Source: a virus. Taken from it: a stretch of DNA of 42,182 nucleotides. The position numbers and the translations under genes are program-made. The DNA is taken from IMG/VR virus record IMGVR_UViG_3300028602_000033, positions 1 through 42,182 of that record. One strand, written 5' to 3'. The notes beneath the pieces are model-generated. The model searched no databases. It was not told where the DNA came from and saw only the letters and a program-made list of their open reading frames with translations. Each line of letters opens with the position of its first letter. The stretch's first letter is position 1. This document shows, in pieces, positions 125 through 42,182 of this stretch.

Positions 125-2038
125 TTAAAATGAATGATTCAACGTTTCAACGTTTGCAGTAGCAGGGAAATTATTTGCGCCGGTCAAGGAGAATTTCGTA
201 CCTGTCATCCCTTTTGCTACATTTCCAATTAGAACATTATAATTACTGGTCCCGGCGGTCTTTATCGCAGAACCGCCATACCCATTCATGTCATTGACAA
301 AATTATTTTCCAGTAGCGCGTTCGATATATCTGTGATCAGGATGCCTGTATATGTTGAATTTGCCGTGTTCGGATTGACAATCGTATTTCCAGAAATTGT
401 TACTGTGTCCGGTGTCTGCGTGGATGCAACGTGGGTATTATCTCCGGTGGATACTGTGTTATTTGTAGCATTGATGGTGATTGCATCGTATTTTGTACCG
501 TTGATGTAATTATCCTGAATTATAATATCACTCCCGTCACCGTTCAGGATAAGTGCAATTGCATTGCTATTCACGGCTTTAAACTGGTTTTTCTGAATAA
601 TCAAAGATTTGAACGCCTCTGACCTGTACGCATCGTCTATAAATGATATTCCGTAATTGCAACCGTTTACCGTGTTCCCAATAAACACCAGATTCTCATC
701 ATTTGCAAAATATCCAGCTCTGTAAAAATAGGCAGCATTACCACCCTCCATATAATTATTCTTGATAACGTGCATACCACCATCCACTGACCCCCTACGC
801 TCGATTGCAGCGGCATAATGAGATACGAAACCGCCTGAGATAGTATTGTCGCAGAACACTGAATTATATGAGCCATCCCAGAAACCACCATGCGCGCCTT
901 CTGGAATTATTATATTGTTGTTTTCCACACGGATATCTATTACCTGATTGTGAGTGTCCACCGCGAAAGAAGAGTCATTCGTTGGGGACGGGATCATGGT
1001 ATTGTGATGGATGTTAATGCCCCTGAGTAACGAATTCCGCTCATCAGTATTGCAGGTAATACAGTGCCTACTGTTTTCAAGATGATTTGAGAACACTTCG
1101 GCATGTGCTATACCAGACCACAAACCAATACCGTACCCACTCCCCGGCAGTATATTATTATATACTTTATTATTATACAACTTCACATTATACGAAGAGT
1201 AAAACGAAATTCCAGCCAGCCCCGAATCCTTTACCCAACAGTCAGAAACAGAACTGTTTATGCAGTATCTCAGGGAAATGCCCTCATGGATCTCGGCTGA
1301 ATCATAATCTTGGATTTTTATATTTTCGATGTGTACTTCAATAGGGCGATAAACATTTATCTTTACGGTGTCAGAAGAATTATACTCTCTGATCAAGTTC
1401 TCTGTCAGGGCGACATCGTTCCCGCTAACACTTTTAACGCAATACATTTCACCGGTGTACTGGTCTGGATAGTCAGCCGGACACCACTGAACCGCTTTCC
1501 ATATTTTTATTATGTCACCGGGGTGTATAAGTGCCCCACTCGATACGGTTATTACACTCGCACCTTTTGCTGCGGTGCTTACCGTGAGATTTGTTGCGAT
1601 TATTCGCCCCTCTAGGTATATTCCATTCGCTGATCCAGGTGCTACCTGTTTTGTAATCGTAACGTCCCCGATTCCGATTATATTGAGGGACTTGTACTGC
1701 TGAAATATTCTAGCCGCGATATAATAATGCCCTGGTAGCACATAGATCGTCGTGCCGCTCACTGCGGCAGCAAGAGCCTGATTAAACTGCACCTCGTCCC
1801 GGTCACCGTCGCAAATGTAATCTGCTCCGCTTCCGGTTCTCCCGATATAAATTCCAGGCTTGAACACGCTTCCTGAAGCCGTAGGAGTCGTCCATGCTCC
1901 GTTTCCATTCAAGTAGACAGATGCCGATCCTGGCAACACTATGTCAGTAATATCTGAAAGAGTGTGATCGTGATTAGTTACTGCGGCTAATCTAGTTGAG
2001 ATCTGCTCGCCCGTATATGGTAAAGTATAAGTTGTCAT
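125..2038 (-). CDS. Tail spike/receptor-binding protein with right-handed parallel beta-helix (pectate-lyase-like, PbH1), putative glycan depolymerase
   Basis: 637 aa; repeated Asn/Gly-rich beta-helix rungs (NVKLYNNKVYNN, IGNTVNGCNYGI, LENNFVND); N-terminal GSGADYICDGDRDEVQFNQAL motif; last in the fibre cluster. Confidence 0.75.
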   Translation of the reverse strand: MTTYTLPYTGEQISTRLAAVTNHDHTLSDITDIVLPGSASVYLNGNGAWTTPTASGSVFKPGIYIGRTGSGADYICDGDRDEVQFNQALAAAVSGTTIYVLPGHYYIAARIFQQYKSLNIIGIGDVTITKQVAPGSANGIYLEGRIIATNLTVSTAAKGASVITVSSGALIHPGDIIKIWKAVQWCPADYPDQYTGEMYCVKSVSGNDVALTENLIREYNSSDTVKINVYRPIEVHIENIKIQDYDSAEIHEGISLRYCINSSVSDCWVKDSGLAGISFYSSYNVKLYNNKVYNNILPGSGYGIGLWSGIAHAEVFSNHLENSRHCITCNTDERNSLLRGINIHHNTMIPSPTNDSSFAVDTHNQVIDIRVENNNIIIPEGAHGGFWDGSYNSVFCDNTISGGFVSHYAAAIERRGSVDGGMHVIKNNYMEGGNAAYFYRAGYFANDENLVFIGNTVNGCNYGISFIDDAYRSEAFKSLIIQKNQFKAVNSNAIALILNGDGSDIIIQDNYINGTKYDAITINATNNTVSTGDNTHVASTQTPDTVTISGNTIVNPNTANSTYTGILITDISNALLENNFVNDMNGYGGSAIKTAGTSNYNVLIGNVAKGMTGTKFSLTGANNFPATANVETLNHSF

Positions 2039-23385: not shown

Positions 23386-23494
23386 GATATTGGTAAATTG
23401 TAAAGGAAGAGATAGAAAATACCATATTTAAAAAAGAATTTATCAGTAGTGTATATTTAGTTCTCTTCCTGTATATGCTAAAATTTTTCACATA

Positions 23495-23546
23495 TACACT
23501 ATATATAAATCTGAGAATCACTATGTAGTATATAAACCTTTCGGTA
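23495..23546 (-). promoter_or_regulatory. 52-bp repeat copy A, putative late promoter for the head genes
   Basis: Minus strand taCCGAAAGG-TTTATATA (BRE+TATA) followed by conserved GATTCTCAGATTTATATATAGTGTA; 110 bp upstream of the protease gene. Confidence 0.75.
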
Positions 23547-28665: not shown

Positions 28666-28689
28666 AGGTATACCAAAATTATGTGAGTA

Positions 28690-28741
28690 TACACTATATA
28701 TAAATCTGAGAATCAACAGGTAGTATATAAAGCTTTCTATT
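28690..28741 (-). promoter_or_regulatory. 52-bp repeat copy B, putative promoter heading the late operon
   Basis: GAAAGC-TTTATATA plus the same conserved 26-bp block; 25 bp upstream of ATG 28665. Confidence 0.75.
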
Positions 28742-32930: not shown

Positions 32931-33200
32931 ATTAAGTAACTATAGTAAAAATAATATTAATATAATTACCCCTATAGTCCCCAAAACGCAACCCTTAGAC
33001 TCGCTCAATCTATCTTGAGAAAGTCGATAGCTACCGCTATCCAGTGCCAGTTAGCTGGACTTTGTGCGTGATAATGATAATCCCCTTGGATCACCAGATA
33101 GATCTAATCAGTCGCGACAACGAAAGTAATTTATTATGTGTATATGTACCTATCCAATCTATATACATATACATATACAGTTATTATGAAATTAATCTTA

Positions 33201-33252
33201 TACACTATATATAATCCCAAGAATCAACAGGATATATATAAAGCTTTCGGTA
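33201..33252 (-). promoter_or_regulatory. 52-bp repeat copy C
   Basis: tacactatatataatcccaagaatcaacaggatatatataaagctttcggta; BRE/TATA on the minus strand. Confidence 0.7.
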
Positions 33253-34146: not shown

Positions 34147-34267
34147 GTGAGTAAATAATCCACTCACTGTTTTTTCGTAAATAGTACCATGTTACTTACA
34201 TAACAAGTGGTACGTACTATTTACTGCCCTGTCAAGCAGATTTGCCAGCAGTCCTGAAATTTTCAGA
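34147..34267. ncRNA. Candidate structured RNA or bidirectional terminator region
   Basis: Four adjacent hairpins, including the perfect 11-bp inverted repeat gtaaatagtac/gtactatttac (34177-34187, 34214-34224); immediately downstream of promoter copy D on the minus strand. Confidence 0.35.
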
Positions 34268-34269
34268 AC

Positions 34270-34321
34270 TACACTATATATAAATCTGAGAATCAATAGG
34301 ATATATATAAACCTTTCGGTA
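34270..34321 (-). promoter_or_regulatory. 52-bp repeat copy D
   Basis: tacactatatataaatctgagaatcaataggatatatataaacctttcggta. Confidence 0.7.
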
Positions 34322-36047: not shown

Positions 36048-36341
36048 ATGACCACGGAAATAGACAACATTGTATCAAAACTCGATGAAGGTAGTCTTAG
36101 TTCTAAAGAAGTTGTAACACTATTTAATTTAGTAGGATACAACTGTATAGGATTTACACAACACGGTGAATTTTACTGTCTACACAGAGATATCGGAAGA
36201 CTTTTGCCGCTATTCCAGCATATTAAAAATTCAGACACACTTGAAAAAGCTAATGAAGTGCAGCATATGATAGTTTTTAAACCATATGGCATAACGTTGG
36301 CTGATGTTGAAAGAGTGTGGAACGCTTTCCATAACAAATGA
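36048..36341 (+). CDS. Hypothetical protein
   Basis: AAGGAG SD; 97 aa. Confidence 0.65.
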   Translation: MTTEIDNIVSKLDEGSLSSKEVVTLFNLVGYNCIGFTQHGEFYCLHRDIGRLLPLFQHIKNSDTLEKANEVQHMIVFKPYGITLADVERVWNAFHNK

Positions 36342-37137
36342 AGGTGATACTACGTTAAAATTAGTTAAAACAAAATCGTTTGCTAATGGAAATGTGTACG
36401 CATTTCGTACAGAAGATGGTTTCTTAGTTGAAACTACAGACACATTTCTTCCATTCTACACACAGGATTCGTTAAATAGAAAACATAATCTTTTAGATAA
36501 TGATAATCTTGGTGATAGATCTGAACGTTGGATGATTGGTGTGTCTGTAATGTCTGGATGCCCTGTTCGTTGTAAGTTTTGTGCAACCGGACAGATGAAA
36601 AAATGGCGTAATTTGACAACGGAAGAAATTGTAGAACAAGTGGAATTTGTAGTAAACAGTAGATCAGAAAAGTTCATCGATGCAGAGGAACACAAGATAA
36701 ATTATACACGCATGGGAGAACCCTTTCTCAATATTGATAATGTAAAACGCGCTATCCGTATTATAAGCGAAAACTATCCAGGTACACATCATTATGTATC
36801 TACGATAGGAATTAAAAATTCTGATTTCTCGTGGATCGATGGCAACATCACTTTACAAGTATCACTTCATTCGTTGGACGAAAAGAAGCGTAATTGGTTA
36901 ATACCTTATAATGATAAATTAACTATCGAAGAACTTGGACAGGTCAGAACAAATAGTTTCAGAAAAACTACACTTAATATGACGCTAGTAGACGAAACTG
37001 ATTTTAATATAGATACGCTAAAGAAATATTTCGATAAAGACTATTTTTTTATAAAATTAAGTCCTATAAATACCAACATAATATCCGATAAAAACGATTT
37101 AGGTAGCGGAGTTATTAAATACACTAACAGGAGGTGA
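36304..37137 (+). CDS. RlmN/Cfr-like radical SAM protein, N-terminal (large) part
   Basis: VET motif, SVMSGCPVRCKFCATG (CxxxCxxC), RMGEP, VSTIG and LQVSLHS motifs; lacks the C-terminal AACGQL. Confidence 0.85.
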   Translation: MLKECGTLSITNEGDTTLKLVKTKSFANGNVYAFRTEDGFLVETTDTFLPFYTQDSLNRKHNLLDNDNLGDRSERWMIGVSVMSGCPVRCKFCATGQMKKWRNLTTEEIVEQVEFVVNSRSEKFIDAEEHKINYTRMGEPFLNIDNVKRAIRIISENYPGTHHYVSTIGIKNSDFSWIDGNITLQVSLHSLDEKKRNWLIPYNDKLTIEELGQVRTNSFRKTTLNMTLVDETDFNIDTLKKYFDKDYFFIKLSPINTNIISDKNDLGSGVIKYTNRR

Positions 37138-37528: not shown

Positions 37529-38890
37529 ATGAACAGTTTAAGTCTTACCGATTCCTATAAAGCTAGTCATTTCCTACTATACCCGCCAAATACCACAGAA
37601 ATCTCAGGGTATTTTGAAGCTAGAGCAAGCTCAAAGTTCGATCATATTTCGTTCTTTGGGTTACAATACTATATTAAAAATAAATTGTTGCCTTTTATAG
37701 AAAACATGGATATAGAAGAGGCAGAGCGAACATGGAATAAGCACGGTTTACCGTTTAATAGAAAAGGATTTGAAGCTCTGAAAGAACTTGGATACTTACC
37801 TATAGAAATTCAGGCAGTACCTGAAGGTATGTATATACCAAAAGATAACGTTCTTTTACAGATGAAAAATACACATCCAGATTTCGCATGGTTAGTTACA
37901 TGGCTTGAAACATCTTTAGTACAACTCTGGTATCCATGTACTGTTGCAAGCTTGTCTAAAAAATGCAAGATTATGATGAAAAAGTACCTTGAGGAAACTG
38001 GCTGCGAAAATATCGAGTCCGTACTTCTGTTCATGCTACACGATTTCGGATGTAGAGGAGCTTCTTCTATGGAATCAGCTAGTATAGGTGGAGCAGCGCA
38101 CCTCACTAATTTTATGGGTACAGATACGTTTATAGCGCTGGATTTACTACGTGAATATTATAATATGGATATGGCTGGTTATTCTATTCCAGCTATGGAA
38201 CATTCCACTGTAATTGCTTGGGAAAACGAAGATGATTCATATCAAAATATATTAGATATGTATTTGAAAGAAAACGCTATATTAGCTTGTGTATCCGATT
38301 CAACTGACTTTAAAAGAGTTAACAGCAATTGGGGCACTCGGTTCAAGCAGCAGATAGAAACTTCCGGTGGACGCGTTGTTGTTCGGCACGATTCTGGTTC
38401 GCCTCTGTATAACTCTATAGATGCTATTAGAACGTTGATGGATAATTTTGGTTCCACAATCAATACTAAAGGATATAAAGTGTTACCGAACTATATCAGA
38501 TTTATATGGGGAGATGGTGCTGATTATGCTATAATCGATCAGACATTACATGCACTAATTGGTTTTGACATAGCCTCTGAAAATATTGTTTTCGGCATGG
38601 GAGGAGCACTTTTACAAAGAGTTGATCGAGATACTTGCTCGTTCGCTTTTAAAATAAACGAAGTTGTTCAGAATAATACAAGACGTGCTGTATATAAGCA
38701 CCCTGTAACTGGAAAAGGTAAAGCGTCAAAACCTGGAAGACAAGCCCTAATATTCGAAAATGGACAGTATAGAACTATACCTGAAATAGAACTACATGGT
38801 AGAGAAAATATACTTAGAACAGTATTTAAAGATGGAAACCTACTTATTGATGAAACCTTTGAAACTATAAGAAAAAGAGCAGACGTATAA
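37529..38890 (+). CDS. nadV: Nicotinamide phosphoribosyltransferase (NAMPT)
   Basis: TDSYKASH, HDFG.RG, SIPAMEHS, VSDS, R.DSG, GDG and FGMGGALLQ.V.RDT motifs. Confidence 0.9.
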   Translation: MNSLSLTDSYKASHFLLYPPNTTEISGYFEARASSKFDHISFFGLQYYIKNKLLPFIENMDIEEAERTWNKHGLPFNRKGFEALKELGYLPIEIQAVPEGMYIPKDNVLLQMKNTHPDFAWLVTWLETSLVQLWYPCTVASLSKKCKIMMKKYLEETGCENIESVLLFMLHDFGCRGASSMESASIGGAAHLTNFMGTDTFIALDLLREYYNMDMAGYSIPAMEHSTVIAWENEDDSYQNILDMYLKENAILACVSDSTDFKRVNSNWGTRFKQQIETSGGRVVVRHDSGSPLYNSIDAIRTLMDNFGSTINTKGYKVLPNYIRFIWGDGADYAIIDQTLHALIGFDIASENIVFGMGGALLQRVDRDTCSFAFKINEVVQNNTRRAVYKHPVTGKGKASKPGRQALIFENGQYRTIPEIELHGRENILRTVFKDGNLLIDETFETIRKRADV

Positions 38891-39258: not shown

Positions 39259-39283
39259 TAAACGAAAAATATAGGATGATAAT

Positions 39284-39469
39284 ATGAGCAACTTATCTAT
39301 AAAAGATTCACCATTGCATAAACCGGCTGAATGTGAGTATTACATACTATGTGAGTCTCAATATGGGACTCAGCAATGTTCGATGAAGAGAGCAGACTGT
39401 CTGAAATGTAACAGGAGACTATCCTACGTCAATGAAAACGCCGGAACTGAAAGGCACTTTACGGAATGA
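39284..39469 (+). CDS. Small Cys-rich protein
   Basis: AGGATGA SD; 5 Cys. Confidence 0.55.
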   Translation: MSNLSIKDSPLHKPAECEYYILCESQYGTQQCSMKRADCLKCNRRLSYVNENAGTERHFTE

Positions 39470-39513
39470 AATAACTGTGGGCACACGATATTGTGGGTAA
39501 AAGGTGATAACAA

Positions 39514-39663
39514 TTGGAACTCGATAAATTTGAAGTTTTAGCTCAAGCTATTTATATACTGTTGTTGGTACACTACGCAACTAGTCGTAAAGAGCCAAGC
39601 TTAATCGAAATGTGTGTGGTTCTATACACGCTAATAATATTTTTATATGCTATTTGGATATAA
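39514..39663 (+). CDS. 49-aa two-TM membrane protein
   Basis: AAGGTGA SD then TTG; MELDKFEVLAQAIYILLLVHY...VVLYTLIIFLYAIWI. Confidence 0.5.
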   Translation: MELDKFEVLAQAIYILLLVHYATSRKEPSLIEMCVVLYTLIIFLYAIWI

Positions 39664-39867
39664 ATAATACAGAGGAATCTCGTATATAATACAATATTAA
39701 TACTTTTAATTCTCCCATTCTTATTTTTCCCATGTGTCACAGGCACTGTGCCTCCTAGCTATAGGAATATAGTTTCAATCACTATATGTGACAGCACGAC
39801 AAATCGGATTTCATCCGATGTATAGAACAACACAAGAAACACAACAATCCTATAGGAGAAATATAAC

Positions 39868-40482
39868 ATGACAGAAATTGTAAACGCAGAAATGGGTATC
39901 GCAGAAGAAAACAAGAAGTGCATCAAAGTAGGAGCACTCAAATCCTCAAACGCAAAATTTGTAACCATCGATAAGACTAAAATATACCTCATCGCAGATA
40001 TAATCGAAATGGCTGGATTTGCAGTCCCAGAATCTGTTCGCACAAATGCCGGACCGATTGACTCTACTGCAATACTGCCAGAAAACTGCAGTATAATTGC
40101 ACTAGGCATCACCAATGTGAAAGCTGGCTGGTACAACTATGAAGATGAAGATGATGAATACTACGATGGGGATGAGGATGAGGAAGATGAAGATGAAGAT
40201 GAAGATGATGAACCAACCATCGTATCTTCACCTGTAAATGAAGAAGTTCCATGTGAATTCAGAAGGTGTATCAAAGTAGGAGCACTTAAATCCTCCAACT
40301 CTGTAACAATCACTATCGACAAGCGTAAAATCTACACCGTAGCTCAGGTAATTGAAGCTGCAGGATTCGACGTGCCAGAGTCAGTAAGAACCGACGCAGG
40401 TCTGATTGAGGCGAGTGCCCTCCTGCCTGAACGCGCTAAAATCATTGCTCTAGGTATTACTAAAGTAAAGGCTGGACTTTAA
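39868..40482 (+). CDS. Tandem ubiquitin-like (beta-grasp) precursor with acidic linker
   Basis: Two highly similar ~70-aa repeats (CIKVGALKSSN...EAAGFDVPESVRT.AG...IIALGIT.VKAG), ending VKAG-W and VKAG-L. Confidence 0.75.
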   Translation: MTEIVNAEMGIAEENKKCIKVGALKSSNAKFVTIDKTKIYLIADIIEMAGFAVPESVRTNAGPIDSTAILPENCSIIALGITNVKAGWYNYEDEDDEYYDGDEDEEDEDEDEDDEPTIVSSPVNEEVPCEFRRCIKVGALKSSNSVTITIDKRKIYTVAQVIEAAGFDVPESVRTDAGLIEASALLPERAKIIALGITKVKAGL

Positions 40483-40485
40483 TTG

Positions 40486-40510
40486 AAGTGGTGACTTTCA
40501 CCACTTTTTT
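40486..40510 (+). terminator. Hairpin terminator/attenuator between Ubl and E2-like genes
   Basis: AAGTGGTGA-ctt-TCACCACTT followed by TTTT. Confidence 0.65.
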
Positions 40511-40528
40511 AATTTAATAGGAGGAATT

Positions 40529-41560
40529 ATGCGAGATAATATAAAGATAGAGATGATAAAATCAGATTTAAATAAACTATGTCCACCTGAAAATCCACAA
40601 ACAAACTTCGAAGACCTTCTAGAAATATTAGAAGAAGATCCACGTATTAAAAGAGTATCAGCGACAGGAGATATGCTAGAAATATACACAGCTCCTATTA
40701 TTATAAATCAAGATGAAGTGCATGTAAAACCTAGTCTATGCCGTATAACCGCGGATCGACATAAAAAACTCAATTTCGGAGAATTTCTAATTCTAATAAA
40801 GCCAGGTTTTATACCTACGGCTATACCTTATAACGTTAGTGAATATAACGTGCCACCCATGTATAGACGATATGTTATGAATACATATAACGATGAAGAA
40901 ATGGAGAAAGGATTTAGTGTTGACTCCTGTAACAGTTCGCTTGGTCTGTATGCTTTACAAGTATATGGTTGGTATACAGCGCCAGTTGGCAAAGCTCTCG
41001 GATGTGGAAAAATTGAAAATAACTACCGATCGCATAACACATATACAATTTTAACTCCGCATCCACATGTCGATTCGGTAGGACATATATGTTACGGCAA
41101 CATAGGATCTATGATATATGAGGCGTATGAAGCTCATGAAATTGGATTTATCATAGAGTTAACATTAGAAGTTCTTTTCAGCTATTCTGATGAAAATCCA
41201 TACTATGAACTATGGAAACCAGATCCATGTGCCGCCTGTCCAGATGCGAATACAAGTATATGCAATACATGTGGGTGTTATTCATGCGACAATCACGAAC
41301 GATGTTTAAAATGTCATAATTTTAGAAGTATATCATTAAGTACACTTAAACGTATGAGTATCACTATAGAAAAAGTACGAGCAGCTGACTTAAATATACC
41401 GCACGGGGAGCGTATTAGTGTATTTAAAGAGAAATTGAATGCCTTTATAGAAGAATATATGGATAATGACGGGTATCTATCGAAGGAAGATCTTCTATAT
41501 GCACTAGAAAACGGAAATGCAGATGATATTCTACGTGACGACTTTGATCCTTATGTATGA
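40529..41560 (+). CDS. Prokaryotic E2/UBC-like protein with C-terminal Cys cluster
   Basis: HPHVDSVGHIC matches the UBC HPxV...GxIC active-site motif (Cys codon 41090-41092); 8-Cys cluster follows; lies between Ubl and JAB genes. Confidence 0.7.
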   Translation: MRDNIKIEMIKSDLNKLCPPENPQTNFEDLLEILEEDPRIKRVSATGDMLEIYTAPIIINQDEVHVKPSLCRITADRHKKLNFGEFLILIKPGFIPTAIPYNVSEYNVPPMYRRYVMNTYNDEEMEKGFSVDSCNSSLGLYALQVYGWYTAPVGKALGCGKIENNYRSHNTYTILTPHPHVDSVGHICYGNIGSMIYEAYEAHEIGFIIELTLEVLFSYSDENPYYELWKPDPCAACPDANTSICNTCGCYSCDNHERCLKCHNFRSISLSTLKRMSITIEKVRAADLNIPHGERISVFKEKLNAFIEEYMDNDGYLSKEDLLYALENGNADDILRDDFDPYV

Positions 41561-41569
41561 GGTGGACCC

Positions 41570-42182
41570 ATGTTGATAAATCTTTCACAACTAAGTATGC
41601 TTAAATTACTTGCTCTGAGTAAAGCATCCGGTTCGGATGAGATAGGAGGTATAATGATTGGATATGTGGATTCTGATCAAATTGTTGTAACTGATATAAC
41701 AGTACCAAAGCAGGAAGTTACAGCTGCTTCTATAAGTTTTGATGACACATCTCTTAATGATCAGATAAGCGAACTATTTTTTGCAGAATCTGATTCATAT
41801 CTAGTTGGTTGGTGGCATACGCACGGAGATACGAAAGTTTTCTGGTCATCCACAGACCAGAACGACGGAATCAATAAATTCTTAAAACCACTAATTGAAA
41901 ATAAAGATACGCCTATCAATGATAAATGGCTTGCTTCTATTGTAGCCAACTCACATGGAGATATTTTAGGGCGTATTGATTATTACAGTGAAACCCCATT
42001 TGGTAGCCATATAAATACACTAAATGATGTACCTGTAGTTTGTTTACCCCAAGTAACTGAAGCACATATTTCTGCCGCTAAAAAGGAAATTAAAGCTAAA
42101 GTTACTAAACCTAAATACACAAGCACATATAAAAAGGGAAAATGGTGTGGTAAAGGTGCTTATAAATATATGTGGAGTTATT
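41570..42182 (+). CDS. JAB/MPN+ metalloprotease (3' end outside the window)
   Basis: ATG 41570 after a GAGGTG SD; EIGG, then HTHGDTKVFWSSTD = exact JAMM HxHx7Sx2D; absent from the ORF track because it is open-ended. Confidence 0.9.
   Translation, partial: MLINLSQLSMLKLLALSKASGSDEIGGIMIGYVDSDQIVVTDITVPKQEVTAASISFDDTSLNDQISELFFAESDSYLVGWWHTHGDTKVFWSSTDQNDGINKFLKPLIENKDTPINDKWLASIVANSHGDILGRIDYYSETPFGSHINTLNDVPVVCLPQVTEAHISAAKKEIKAKVTKPKYTSTYKKGKWCGKGAYKYMWSY

What the first reader, a model, noticed from the sequence alone, without database searches (positions are those of the whole stretch)
39868..42182. Virus-encoded ubiquitin-like conjugation operon (tandem Ubl, E2-like, JAB protease)
Seen: three consecutive co-oriented genes, namely a two-repeat beta-grasp-like protein with each repeat ending VKAG, a protein with the UBC motif HPHV..GHIC, and a protease with an exact JAMM motif. 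Established: Ubl-E2-JAB-E1 neighbourhoods define prokaryotic ubiquitin-like conjugation systems, and some bacterial ones (CBASS Cap2/Cap3, Bil) act in antiviral defence. Inference: here a lytic-type archaeal virus carries its own system in the early block, possibly to tag host proteins, redirect the archaeal proteasome, or counter host Ubl-based defence. An E1 is predicted just beyond the right edge.
Basis: partly seen in the sequence, partly recalled or inferred. Interest (0 to 1): 0.85.

Follow-up and report, generated by a model that had tools for sequence, protein, structure and literature searches.

The report
Virus-borne ubiquitin-like protein-tagging gene cassette
An uncultured tailed virus carries its own kit for attaching a small ubiquitin-like tag to proteins (a two-copy tag precursor, a carrier enzyme of an uncatalogued family, a trimming protease and, in near-identical relatives, an extra partner protein and an activating enzyme); such kits have been tested only in cells, mostly as anti-virus defence.

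Summary
Window 39868-42182 encodes three co-oriented genes with ribosome-binding sites:
- a 204-aa protein with two 71-aa repeats, each ending VKAG;
- a 343-aa protein with HPHVDSVGHICYGN and eight invariant Cys;
- a JAB peptidase with an exact JAMM motif, cut by the contig end.

Models support a beta-grasp fold for the repeats (moderate confidence) and a UBC/E2 fold for the second protein (pLDDT 85.5; its best-ranked solved structures are almost all E2s).

The predicted E1 exists. In a 96%-identical metagenome contig the JAB gene is followed by a 217-aa orphan gene (X) and then a ThiF-type E1. A 41%-identical relative has the same order.

The E2 belongs to a large family with no Pfam or NCBIfam hit in those tested (111 clusters). 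In 14 of 15 IMG/VR viral contigs that carry it, a short ThiF E1 lies downstream on the same strand. In most, a small Gly-ending Ubl sits directly upstream of the E2.

A complex model places X on the E2 (0.72 against 0.00 in controls).

It is not a Bil, Bub, CBASS or PRTRC member. I found no paper on a virus-encoded version, but this scan has noted similar cassettes on other DNA. The host (archaeal?), the lifestyle and the targets remain unknown.

The parts
39284..39469 (+). 61-aa Cys-rich ORF, first gene of the shared module (role unknown)
   Evidence: 99.5% nt identity to L001 2742-2927. Window/L001 homology begins at window 39259 and upstream DNA is unrelated. No Pfam hit.
39868..40482 (+). 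Poly-Ubl precursor, 204 aa, two beta-grasp units
   Evidence: ORF. AF2 model shows bb-a-bbb twice, domain pLDDT 70-80. All structural neighbours are beta-grasp/ubiquitin-like. 11 homologues have 2 or 3 units.
39916..40128 (+). Ubl unit 1, ending NVKAG (predicted JAB cut after Gly87)
   Evidence: Translation. G80, N83, V84, K85, A86 and G87 are invariant in 11 sequences.
40129..40263 (+). Acidic Asp/Glu-rich linker plus conserved (E/D)(V/I)PCEFRR lead-in of unit 2
   Evidence: Translation. Its length varies among homologues, and it is replaced by an 11-residue linker in three-unit proteins.
40264..40476 (+). Ubl unit 2, ending KVKAG
   Evidence: Translation. V200, K201, A202 and G203 are invariant.
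40477..40479 (+). One-codon C-terminal cap (Leu) masking the terminal Gly
   Evidence: Homologues carry L, SR, SSTF or a 17-residue tail after the invariant KAG.
40485..40507 (+). Hairpin followed by a T-run between the Ubl and E2 genes (terminator/attenuator-like)
   Evidence: 10-bp stem, 3-nt loop, T-run. The 46-nt spacer is 100% identical in L001.
40529..41560 (+). E2-like (UBC-fold) protein with N-terminal extension, Cys-rich tail and helical C-terminus
   Evidence: AF2 pLDDT 85.5, pTM 0.78. In VIA-align, 16 of the top 17 chains among 48,161 are E2s and one is a UEV domain of the same fold, Z 5.2-5.7. 42 chains with Z>=5 are all E2s, best UbcH8 Z 6.3, rmsd 3.7, 102 aligned.
41060..41101 (+). 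Active-site motif HPHVDSVGHICYGN (H178, P179, candidate catalytic C188)
   Evidence: H178, P179, C188 and G190 are invariant in 113 sequences. The family profile aligns this motif on HPNINSNGSICL of UbcH5B/UbcH7, i.e. on the catalytic Cys (E 0.02-0.04).
41228..41314 (+). Eight-Cys region (four CxxC pairs), probable two-zinc module
   Evidence: C234, 237, 245, 248, 250, 253, 259 and 262 are invariant in the close family. Cys-rich tails are common in the wider family. Its fold was not tested separately.
41570..42182 (+). JAB/JAMM metallopeptidase, first 204 of about 282 codons (cut by contig end)
   Evidence: Pfam JAB 4.3e-10. The full-length 282-aa form is in L001. Best solved relatives are Caldiarchaeum Rpn11-like 4.3e-07, Rpn11, CSN5 and AMSH.
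41816..41857 (+). JAMM motif HTHGDTKVFWSSTD (HxHx7Sx2D); the upstream Glu is at 41639-41641
   Evidence: Translation.

Best explanation
This is the left part of a five-gene, virus-encoded ubiquitin-like conjugation cassette: poly-Ubl, E2, JAB, X, E1. Proposed mechanism, with each step marked. (1) The poly-Ubl precursor is cut by the JAB peptidase after each invariant ...VKAG, removing the Leu cap and separating the units. This frees modifiers with a C-terminal Gly (inferred from the variable caps after an invariant KAG, and by analogy with BilC and Caldiarchaeum Rpn11). (2) The short, single-domain ThiF-type E1 adenylates that Gly (inferred; the E1 is seen only in relatives). (3) The Ubl passes as a thioester to Cys188 of the E2 (inferred from a UBC fold, an invariant Cys and an HP[HN] motif). 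(4) The E2, together with the orphan protein X predicted to bind its N-terminal face, and perhaps its own zinc tail, chooses the target lysines (inferred; X-E2 binding is a model only). The hairpin after the Ubl gene may keep the tag in excess over the enzymes. The cassette travels as a module between virus genomes. I think it most likely serves the virus itself, by modifying host or viral proteins during infection. The targets are unknown.
For: - Genes and motifs.
- Beta-grasp: the model shows bb-a-bbb twice. Foldseek neighbours are DWNN, SUMO, di-ubiquitin, ISG15 and a bacterial multi-ubiquitin protein. VIA neighbours are all beta-grasp, including BubA Z 5.7, multi-ubiquitin Z 5.2, MoaD Z 5.0, SAMP1 and the Bil Ubl.
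- Precursor logic: homologues hold 2 or 3 units, each ending NVKAG, with caps L / SR / SSTF / a 17-residue tail.
- E2: pLDDT 85.5. Top structural matches are E2/UEV. The profile aligns the invariant Cys on the UbcH5B/UbcH7 catalytic Cys. Two distant members even read HPNV.
- JAB: exact JAMM motif, Pfam above cut-off, nearest solved relatives are deubiquitinases.
- E1: ThiF family in L001 and L003, nearest solved relatives UBA5 and MccB. JAB/X and X/E1 reading frames overlap by 4 nt.
- Family context: 111 clusters share the E2 core. In 14 of 15 IMG/VR viral loci with such an E2, a ThiF E1 lies downstream on the same strand; six of these have a detectable JAB between; a 76-87-aa protein ending K(V/I)xG plus 1-4 residues sits directly upstream of the E2 in 10 loci, with more divergent small ORFs at that position in two more.
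- X-E2: ipSAE 0.72, best of three controls 0.00; the mark was reached by 58 of 80 solved complexes and 2 of 110 mismatched pairs. Runs agree in at least 52% of contacts and partner pLDDT is at least 72. My own shallow alignments were used, so the counts hold only roughly.
- Module: 95.6% identity to L001 from window 39259 onward, unrelated upstream.
Against: - No biochemistry exists for any member.
- In this window the cassette is incomplete. The JAB is cut and X and E1 are inferred from relatives, so this virus's own copies are unseen.
- Structural Z-scores are middling (4.4-6.4), a range the tool says can reflect only a common arrangement. Foldseek found nothing significant for the E2, and the profile-to-PDB E-values are marginal (0.02-0.3).
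- The Ubl model is only moderately confident (mean pLDDT 66).
- The Ubl ends in Ala-Gly, not Gly-Gly.
- The E1 reads NISNQ where ThiF/MoeB-type enzymes, as I recall them, have an Arg (NxxRQ). Its candidate catalytic Cys could not be checked for conservation because only one full sequence is available.
- The purpose (pro-viral or defensive) has no direct evidence.
Confidence: 0.75

Rival explanations
1. Same biochemistry, opposite purpose. The cassette is a defence or superinfection-exclusion system carried by the virus. Like Bil, it would tag structural proteins of competing viruses, or protect a lysogen.
For: The tested bacterial systems of this kind are anti-phage, or are associated with anti-phage regulators: Bil, CBASS Cap2/Cap3 and Bub (PMC11601596, read; 10.1101/2023.09.26.559546). 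The cassette is a mobile accessory module with a sharp recombination boundary. It sits beside other accessory genes (NAMPT, radical SAM). At least one IMG/VR locus with a related cassette (L005) has what looks, by eye, like a serine-recombinase gene nearby (not checked against Pfam).
Against: No integrase or repressor was seen in the 42 kb held, though not every ORF was scanned and the contig is incomplete. Related cassettes recur in many viral contigs of 17-167 kb, which fits a conserved viral function at least as well. No defence-type regulator was seen among the ORFs scanned. PADLOC finds only generic JAB and E1 domain matches.
Confidence: 0.2
2. A sulfur-carrier or adenylation-only pathway (ThiS/MoaD-ThiF type) for cofactor or RNA thio-modification, not protein tagging.
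For: The E1 is short and ThiF/MoeB-sized; its best NCBIfam hit is ThiF, far below cut-off. The Ubl ending resembles ThiS/MoaD. MoaD and SAMP1 are among the structural neighbours. A radical SAM RNA-methylase-like gene lies about 3 kb upstream.
Against: Per 10.1101/2023.09.26.559546, ThiS/MoaD pathways encode no E2-like protein. Here an E2 with an invariant Cys is the most conserved signature of the whole family. The tandem precursor units with caps, and a JAB whose nearest solved relatives are deubiquitinases, fit conjugation. No sulfurtransferase, rhodanese or thiazole/molybdopterin synthase gene is in the cassette.
Confidence: 0.05
3. A virion-assembly device like the lambda/T1 tail-assembly Ubl (TAPI) with the JAB-containing TAPK, acting only on the virus's own structural proteins. 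Or else a decaying, non-functional relic.
For: Phage Ubl-plus-JAB pairs in tail-assembly clusters are described in PMC1779556.
Against: The cassette lies in the opposite-strand accessory block, more than 11 kb from the tail and head genes. It includes E1 and E2, which TAPI/TAPK systems lack. All reading frames are intact and motifs are invariant across 40-96% identical relatives.
Confidence: 0.04

Closest known systems
Bil (BilABCD, bacterial ISG15-like) anti-phage operons, types I and II
   Same: Separate Ubl, E2, JAB and E1 genes. The JAB pre-processes a capped Ubl to expose the C-terminal Gly. There is no separate E3, and the E2 is proposed to pick targets (PMC11601596; 10.1101/2023.09.26.559546). 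The Bil Ubl (8tyz_B) is among the structural neighbours of the Ubl model, Z 4.5.
   Different: [quoted passage not shown] The E2 here has an HPH motif, a large insertion and a zinc tail, and gave no Pfam, PADLOC or NCBIfam hit. The Ubl is a cleavable tandem precursor with an acidic linker. A fifth gene, X, is present. The cassette is carried by a virus, not a defence island.
Caldiarchaeum subterraneum eukaryote-like ubiquitin operon (Ub, E1, E2, small RING E3, Rpn11 homologue)
   Same: Five genes. The E2 has a classical HPN-type motif. An Rpn11-type JAB trims the pro-Ub (function from my recall of Fuchs et al. 2018, not read here). The best solved sequence relative of this JAB is the 'N11-like protein' of entries 6fjv/6fju (4.3e-07), which I recall, not verified here, to be the Caldiarchaeum Rpn11 homologue. 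A paper on the cascade, PMC5654768, was listed but not read.
   Different: No RING E3 gene. Instead there is a Cys-rich tail fused to the E2 and an orphan E2-binding protein X. The Ubl ends AG and is tandem. The E1 resembles UBA5/MccB/ThiF-size enzymes. Sequence identity to canonical E2s is only 14-18%.
Eukaryotic polyubiquitin precursors (UBB/UBC, yeast UBI4)
   Same: Head-to-tail modifier units in one ORF, with a short C-terminal cap that must be removed. Copy number varies among relatives (2 or 3).
   Different: Units are separated by linkers (11 to about 60 residues, one of them strongly acidic) rather than fused directly. They end Ala-Gly. There is no detectable sequence similarity to ubiquitin; the fold match is only at beta-grasp level.
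Operon class 6d of Iyer, Burroughs and Aravind 2006 (Ubl, JAB, E1-like, E2-like, novel alpha-helical protein); earlier notes of this scan equate it with the PRTRC cassette
   Same: Five components including a fast-evolving extra protein, found on mobile elements (PMC1779556).
   Different: The class 6d E2 lacks the classical His; this family has an invariant HP motif before the Cys. PRTRC_A reaches 16.1 bits against a cut-off of 101.8, and PRTRC_ThiF 26.3 against 144.75. The PRTRC E2 and Ubl models give no hit.
Bub (6E) and CBASS Cap2/Cap3
   Same: E1/E2/JAB-type chemistry in prokaryotes. The JAB and E1 give weak PADLOC/NCBIfam matches to Cap3 and Cap2-type models.
   Different: Bub uses Ubl-E2 and JAB-E1 or E2-E1 fusions, a DUF6527 serine protease and oxyester (Ser) intermediates (PMC11601596). 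CBASS uses an E1-E2 fusion that conjugates a CD-NTase. Here all genes are separate, the E2 nucleophile is an invariant Cys, and no DUF6527 or CD-NTase gene lies in or beside the cassette.

Membership tests
Prokaryotic Ubl conjugation cassette (Ubl + E1 + E2 + JAB in one operon) | Small beta-grasp modifier with a C-terminal Gly, exposed or capped | tested here: met
   Two bb-a-bbb units. All neighbours are beta-grasp, Z 4.4-6.4. Invariant KAG followed by variable caps. Confidence is moderate (pLDDT 66).
Prokaryotic Ubl conjugation cassette (Ubl + E1 + E2 + JAB in one operon) | UBC-fold E2 with a conserved nucleophile | tested here: met
   Model pLDDT 85.5. Top matches are all E2/UEV. C188 is invariant in 113 sequences and aligned on the UbcH5B/UbcH7 catalytic Cys.
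Prokaryotic Ubl conjugation cassette (Ubl + E1 + E2 + JAB in one operon) | JAB/JAMM peptidase with E...HxHx7Sx2D | tested here: met
Prokaryotic Ubl conjugation cassette (Ubl + E1 + E2 + JAB in one operon) | ThiF-type adenylating E1 in the same operon | tested here: inconclusive
   Not in the window, because the contig ends inside the JAB gene. Present in the 96%-identical L001 (start only) and complete in L003; Pfam ThiF above cut-off in both.
Bil (BilABCD) | E1 with inactive plus active adenylation domains and a mobile Cys domain | tested here: not met
   The E1 of L003 is 266 aa with one ThiF domain. Definition from PMC11601596.
Bil (BilABCD) | BilB-type E2 and four-gene operon in defence islands | tested here: inconclusive
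   No Pfam or PADLOC hit for the E2. I do not know whether these libraries hold a BilB model. Here there are five genes on a virus contig.
Bub (6E / DUF6527 operons) | Ubl-E2 and JAB-E1 (or E2-E1) fusions, DUF6527 serine protease, Ser nucleophiles | tested here: not met
   The genes are separate, Pfam finds no DUF6527, and the nucleophile is an invariant Cys.
CBASS type II Cap2/Cap3 | E1-E2 fusion next to a CD-NTase; Cap3 equivalog score | tested here: not met
   E1 and E2 are separate. Cap3 model scores 24.5-28.3 bits against a cut-off of 200. No CD-NTase among the ORFs scanned.
PRTRC cassette (NCBIfam TIGR03734-03742) | Scores above cut-off for PRTRC_A (JAB), PRTRC_ThiF and the E2/Ubl members | tested here: not met
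   16.1 against 101.8 and 26.3 against 144.75 bits. No hit for the E2 or Ubl.
Canonical UBC E2 (Pfam UQ_con) | Pfam match; HPN motif about 8-10 residues before the catalytic Cys | tested here: not met
   No UQ_con hit even at E<=1. The motif is HPH (HPN in two distant members), with the Cys 10 residues after the His. The fold match is moderate. It works like a UBC E2 but is not a Pfam member.
JAB/MPN+ (PF01398, PF14464) | Pfam gathering score and catalytic motif | tested here: met
   39.9 bits against 22.5 and 32.7 against 25. Motif confirmed.
Uncatalogued 'HPHV..C.GN + zinc tail' E2 family of viral Ubl cassettes | Core HPHVxxxGxxCxGN ... LxxYNxxxPY, usually a Cys-rich tail, and a Ubl-E2-JAB-E1 gene order | tested here: met
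   Profile search gives 111 clusters. Motif listing. No Pfam family in 40 members. Gene order in 14 of 15 IMG/VR loci.

The most novel reading that the evidence does not exclude
The virus runs a private, eukaryote-like ubiquitination pathway that is orthogonal to anything in its host. It would tag specific host proteins for takeover, for example handing them to the host proteasome or unfoldase if the host is an archaeon. The orphan protein X would be a new kind of E2-bound substrate receptor (an E3 in function), and the acid-tailed second Ubl would be a functionally distinct modifier.
Probability: 0.2. Interest if true: 0.9.

Novelty: new variant of a known kind. Interest (0 to 1): 0.7.

Why it matters
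Ubiquitin-like conjugation in prokaryotes has so far been shown experimentally only as cellular machinery, mostly anti-phage (Bil, CBASS, probably Bub). Here the same chemistry appears on the virus side. The E2 family has no hit in Pfam, NCBIfam or PADLOC and almost none in PHROGs, yet it is widespread in viral contigs. The tag gene is built like polyubiquitin.

If the cassette is active, prokaryotic viruses would use protein tagging as a weapon or a tool, as eukaryotic viruses do. It would also supply a compact five-protein system (about 1,300 residues in all) for studying E1-E2-target transfer, with a candidate new substrate adaptor (X).

The E2 motif (HPH/HPN) and the Rpn11-like JAB are closer to the archaeal/eukaryotic type than to most bacterial E2-like families. 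This bears on the question of where classical ubiquitination came from.

Tried and rejected
- Close relatives of the E2 or Ubl were not found in IMG/VR, in GTDB species genomes or in GenBank phages by tblastn.
- Host search failed. The tail spike against GTDB found nothing. TerL and MCP match cultured viruses only at <30% (full-length matches), with a mix of bacterial and archaeal viruses. The portal gave no match.
- The contig does not close on itself: there is no terminal overlap, and the JAB frame does not continue sensibly into base 1.
- Foldseek on PDB gave no significant hit for the E2 model; UbcH5b/7/8 appear only at E about 1.
- hhalign found no similarity between the window-type Ubl unit and the single Ubls of the IMG/VR cassettes. 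Their kinship rests on position, size and ending only.
- X: no Pfam, PHROG, PADLOC or NCBIfam family, only one database relative besides L003, and nothing in the Atlas.
- In the complex job, the control that kept X but replaced the E2 scored 0.00. The job therefore gave no support for X binding the E1; this is no evidence against it.
- Alignments A4 and A6 were too diverse for locus scans.
- Rfam found nothing in the window.
- The Atlas gave only sub-threshold leads for the E2: viral and Planctomycetota clusters, some with Prok-E2_D.
Full report
**What is in the window.** The 42,182-base window is a whole contig of a tailed virus. The minus strand from 125 to 28,716 holds tail spike, baseplate J, tape measure, major capsid, portal and large and small terminase genes. 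The plus strand from about 30.7 kb holds mostly unannotated genes, a radical SAM enzyme and a NAMPT. The contig has no terminal overlap and ends inside a gene, so the genome is incomplete.

**The observation.** The three ORFs are as described.
- The 204-aa product of 39868-40482 has two 71-residue units, each ending VKAG. A 45-residue linker rich in Asp/Glu joins them, and one Leu follows the last Gly.
- The 343-aa product of 40529-41560 carries HPHVDSVGHICYGN and four CxxC pairs.
- The open-ended ORF from 41570 has Glu24 and HxHx7Sx2D. It passes the Pfam JAB and Prok-JAB thresholds.
- Each gene has an SD-like sequence. A 10-bp hairpin with a T-run lies between the first two genes.
- Against a 96%-identical contig, most codon differences in the Ubl and JAB genes are synonymous.

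**The missing part of the operon.** A profile of the second protein retrieved four JGI metagenome contigs.
- L001 is 95.6% identical to the window from 39259 to the end. Upstream of that point it is unrelated. The 61-aa Cys-rich gene, the 400-nt spacer and the cassette therefore move together as a module.
- In L001 the JAB gene is complete (282 aa). A 217-aa gene (X) overlaps its stop by 4 nt. X in turn overlaps the start of a gene with a GAGGIGS Rossmann motif, which scores as ThiF (7.5e-14) before that contig ends.
- L003 (E2 41% identical) has E2, JAB, X and a complete 266-aa ThiF-family E1 (3.4e-12). Its nearest solved relatives by sequence are UBA5 and MccB.
- L002 has the Ubl and the E2.

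**The tag.** Eleven homologues of the first protein carry two or three units, every one ending NVKAG (one KVKAG). After the last Gly come L, SR, SSTF or a 17-residue tail. The inter-unit linker can be as short as 11 residues. An invariant Gly followed by a variable, disposable tail is the signature of a precursor trimmed to expose the Gly, as in polyubiquitin and in BilA/BilC (10.1101/2023.09.26.559546).

The AlphaFold model (11 sequences, mean pLDDT 66, domains 70-80) gives bb-a-bbb twice. Foldseek's best rows are DWNN, SUMO, di-ubiquitin, ISG15, FAT10 and a bacterial multi-ubiquitin protein, but at E 0.03-0.6. VIA-align against 48,161 chains returns only beta-grasp proteins at Z 4.4-6.4, among them BubA, the multi-ubiquitin filament protein, MoaD, SAMP1 and the Bil Ubl. 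I read this as beta-grasp with moderate confidence.

**The E2.** No Pfam, PHROG, PADLOC or NCBIfam model matches.
- A profile search of 1.8 billion representatives found 111 clusters. They share HPHVxxxGxxCxGN, a helix pair ending LxxYNxxxPY and, mostly, Cys-rich tails. Two read HPNV, as eukaryotic E2s do.
- Forty of them have no Pfam family. Only three hit any PHROG.
- With this alignment the model reaches pLDDT 85.5 and pTM 0.78.
- Foldseek is not significant. In the exhaustive VIA search, 16 of the top 17 chains are ubiquitin-conjugating enzymes and one is a UEV domain (Z 5.2-5.7, about 100 of 150 residues aligned, rmsd 3.4-5.2). RWD domains and a CBASS E2 rank lower.
- In the second look, all 42 chains with Z>=5 are E2s, led by UbcH8, Ubc13 and Ube2S at Z 6.2-6.3.
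- The family profile's best hits among all PDB sequences are UbcH5B and UbcH7 (E 0.02-0.04). Their alignments put the invariant Cys on the catalytic Cys and GxFxI on the YDKGAFRIEI strand.

Each line is weak alone. Together they make a UBC-fold E2 with Cys188 as nucleophile the clear reading.

**The cassette is a family trait.** A sub-alignment of distant E2 relatives retrieved 15 IMG/VR viral contigs of 11-167 kb.
- In 14 of them a 115-240-aa homologue of the L003 E1 lies 0.6-2.7 kb downstream on the same strand (phmmer 4e-16 to 4e-06; two are cut by locus ends). Pfam ThiF scores 2e-28, 3e-25 and 1.4e-27 in the three tested.
- Six of these 14 have a JAB detectable between the E2 and the E1.
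- Ten loci have a 76-87-residue protein ending ...P-x-K-(V/I)-x-G plus one to four residues directly before the E2. Two more have more divergent small ORFs at that position.

The general order is Ubl, E2 with zinc tail, JAB, E1. The window's lineage adds tandem Ubl units and gene X. Profile-profile comparison did not link the two Ubl types.

**Protein X.** X has no family and only two relatives. It is 36% identical between L001 and L003, which makes it the fastest-evolving member.

I folded E1, E2 and X of L003 together, with X as the scored partner. The score was 0.72 against 0.00 for the best of three controls. That mark was reached by 58 of 80 solved complexes and 2 of 110 mismatched pairs. 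The runs agree in at least 52% of contacts, and partner pLDDT is at least 72. The counts hold only roughly here, because I used my own shallow alignments and three chains.

All confident contacts are with the E2: its N-terminal helices, its first strands, and residues 218-225 just after the active site. This supports, but does not show, an E2-X pair. I propose X as a cofactor or substrate receptor.

**What it is not.**
- Bil E1s have two adenylation domains and a Cys domain. Bub uses fusions, a DUF6527 protease and Ser nucleophiles (PMC11601596). CBASS fuses E1 to E2.
- PRTRC and Cap3 models score far below their cut-offs.
- Class 6d E2s lack the classical His (PMC1779556).
- The JAB's nearest solved relatives are the 'N11-like protein' of 6fjv/6fju (which I recall to be the Caldiarchaeum Rpn11 homologue), then Rpn11, CSN5 and AMSH.

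**Prior knowledge.**
- Four full-text searches found no paper describing a complete virus-encoded cassette of this kind.
- The nearest is a report of three ThiF/E1-like genes in Nidhogg viruses of Helarchaeota, proposed to hijack the host system (10.1101/2021.07.29.454249).
- The two Bil papers that I text-searched for phage-encoded versions do not mention any.
- Earlier notes of this scan report phage-encoded Ubl cassettes, polyubiquitin-like tag genes and 'E2 with zinc-finger tail' families on other DNA. The scan has therefore met this kind before. I re-derived the family and its gene order independently here, and I showed that this copy is not PRTRC-type.

**Host and purpose.** These stay open.
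- A 69-nt element occurs four times. A motif in it, AAAGSTTTATATA, is over-represented (10 matches against 2.5 expected). From my knowledge it resembles archaeal BRE/TATA promoters.
- SD sequences and the hairpin terminator fit both domains, and no close cultured relative exists.
- I favour a pro-viral role over a Bil-like exclusion role, because the cassette recurs across many viral contigs. That is inference only.

Noticed in passing
window 39259 (boundary); 39284-39469 and 39470-39867: Window/L001 homology (95.6%) starts abruptly at 39259. The shared module begins with a 61-aa five-Cys ORF (99.5% nt identity) and a 398-nt gene-free spacer (96%) before the Ubl gene. The role of both is unknown. 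No Rfam or Pfam hit.
   Followed up: partly
window 23474-23542, 28669-28737, 33180-33248, 34249-34317: Four copies of a 69-nt element. On the minus strand they read AAAG(C/G)TTTATATA...TTTATATATAGTGTA. The 13-mer is over-represented (10 against 2.5 expected). It looks like an archaeal BRE/TATA promoter, yet two copies lie in the plus-strand gene block where no minus-strand gene follows.
   Followed up: partly
window 36304-37137 and 37529-38890: A radical SAM enzyme (Pfam 8.6e-13) and a full-length NAMPT (NAPRTase 1.3e-43 plus NAMPT_N) sit just upstream of the cassette. L001 has unrelated genes at that position, so they are not part of the module.
   Followed up: no
L001 5028-5876 and L003 1345-2205 (JAB C-terminal 130 residues); window 41330-41557 (E2 C-terminal helices): Both the JAB and the E2 have helical C-terminal extensions after acidic or Lys-rich linkers. 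The JAB tail has a ...LV(I/T)(Q/K)(G/Y)... pattern that reminded me of UBA-type three-helix modules. No family model matched.
   Followed up: no
L007 4137-4823 and 5780-6439: In one IMG/VR relative, two paralogous ORFs of about 220 aa (N-terminal ...GxxFGRL(V/T)VI...), which look to me like homing-endonuclease-type genes, are inserted between the JAB and E1 genes and after the E1 gene. So the cassette tolerates selfish insertions.
   Followed up: no
window 125-2038: The tail spike (right-handed beta-helix, Pfam Beta_helix 1.1e-11) lies in the most GC-rich stretch of the contig (0.43 against about 0.33). This may indicate recent acquisition. No relative was found in GTDB genomes with the pattern scan.
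   Followed up: partly
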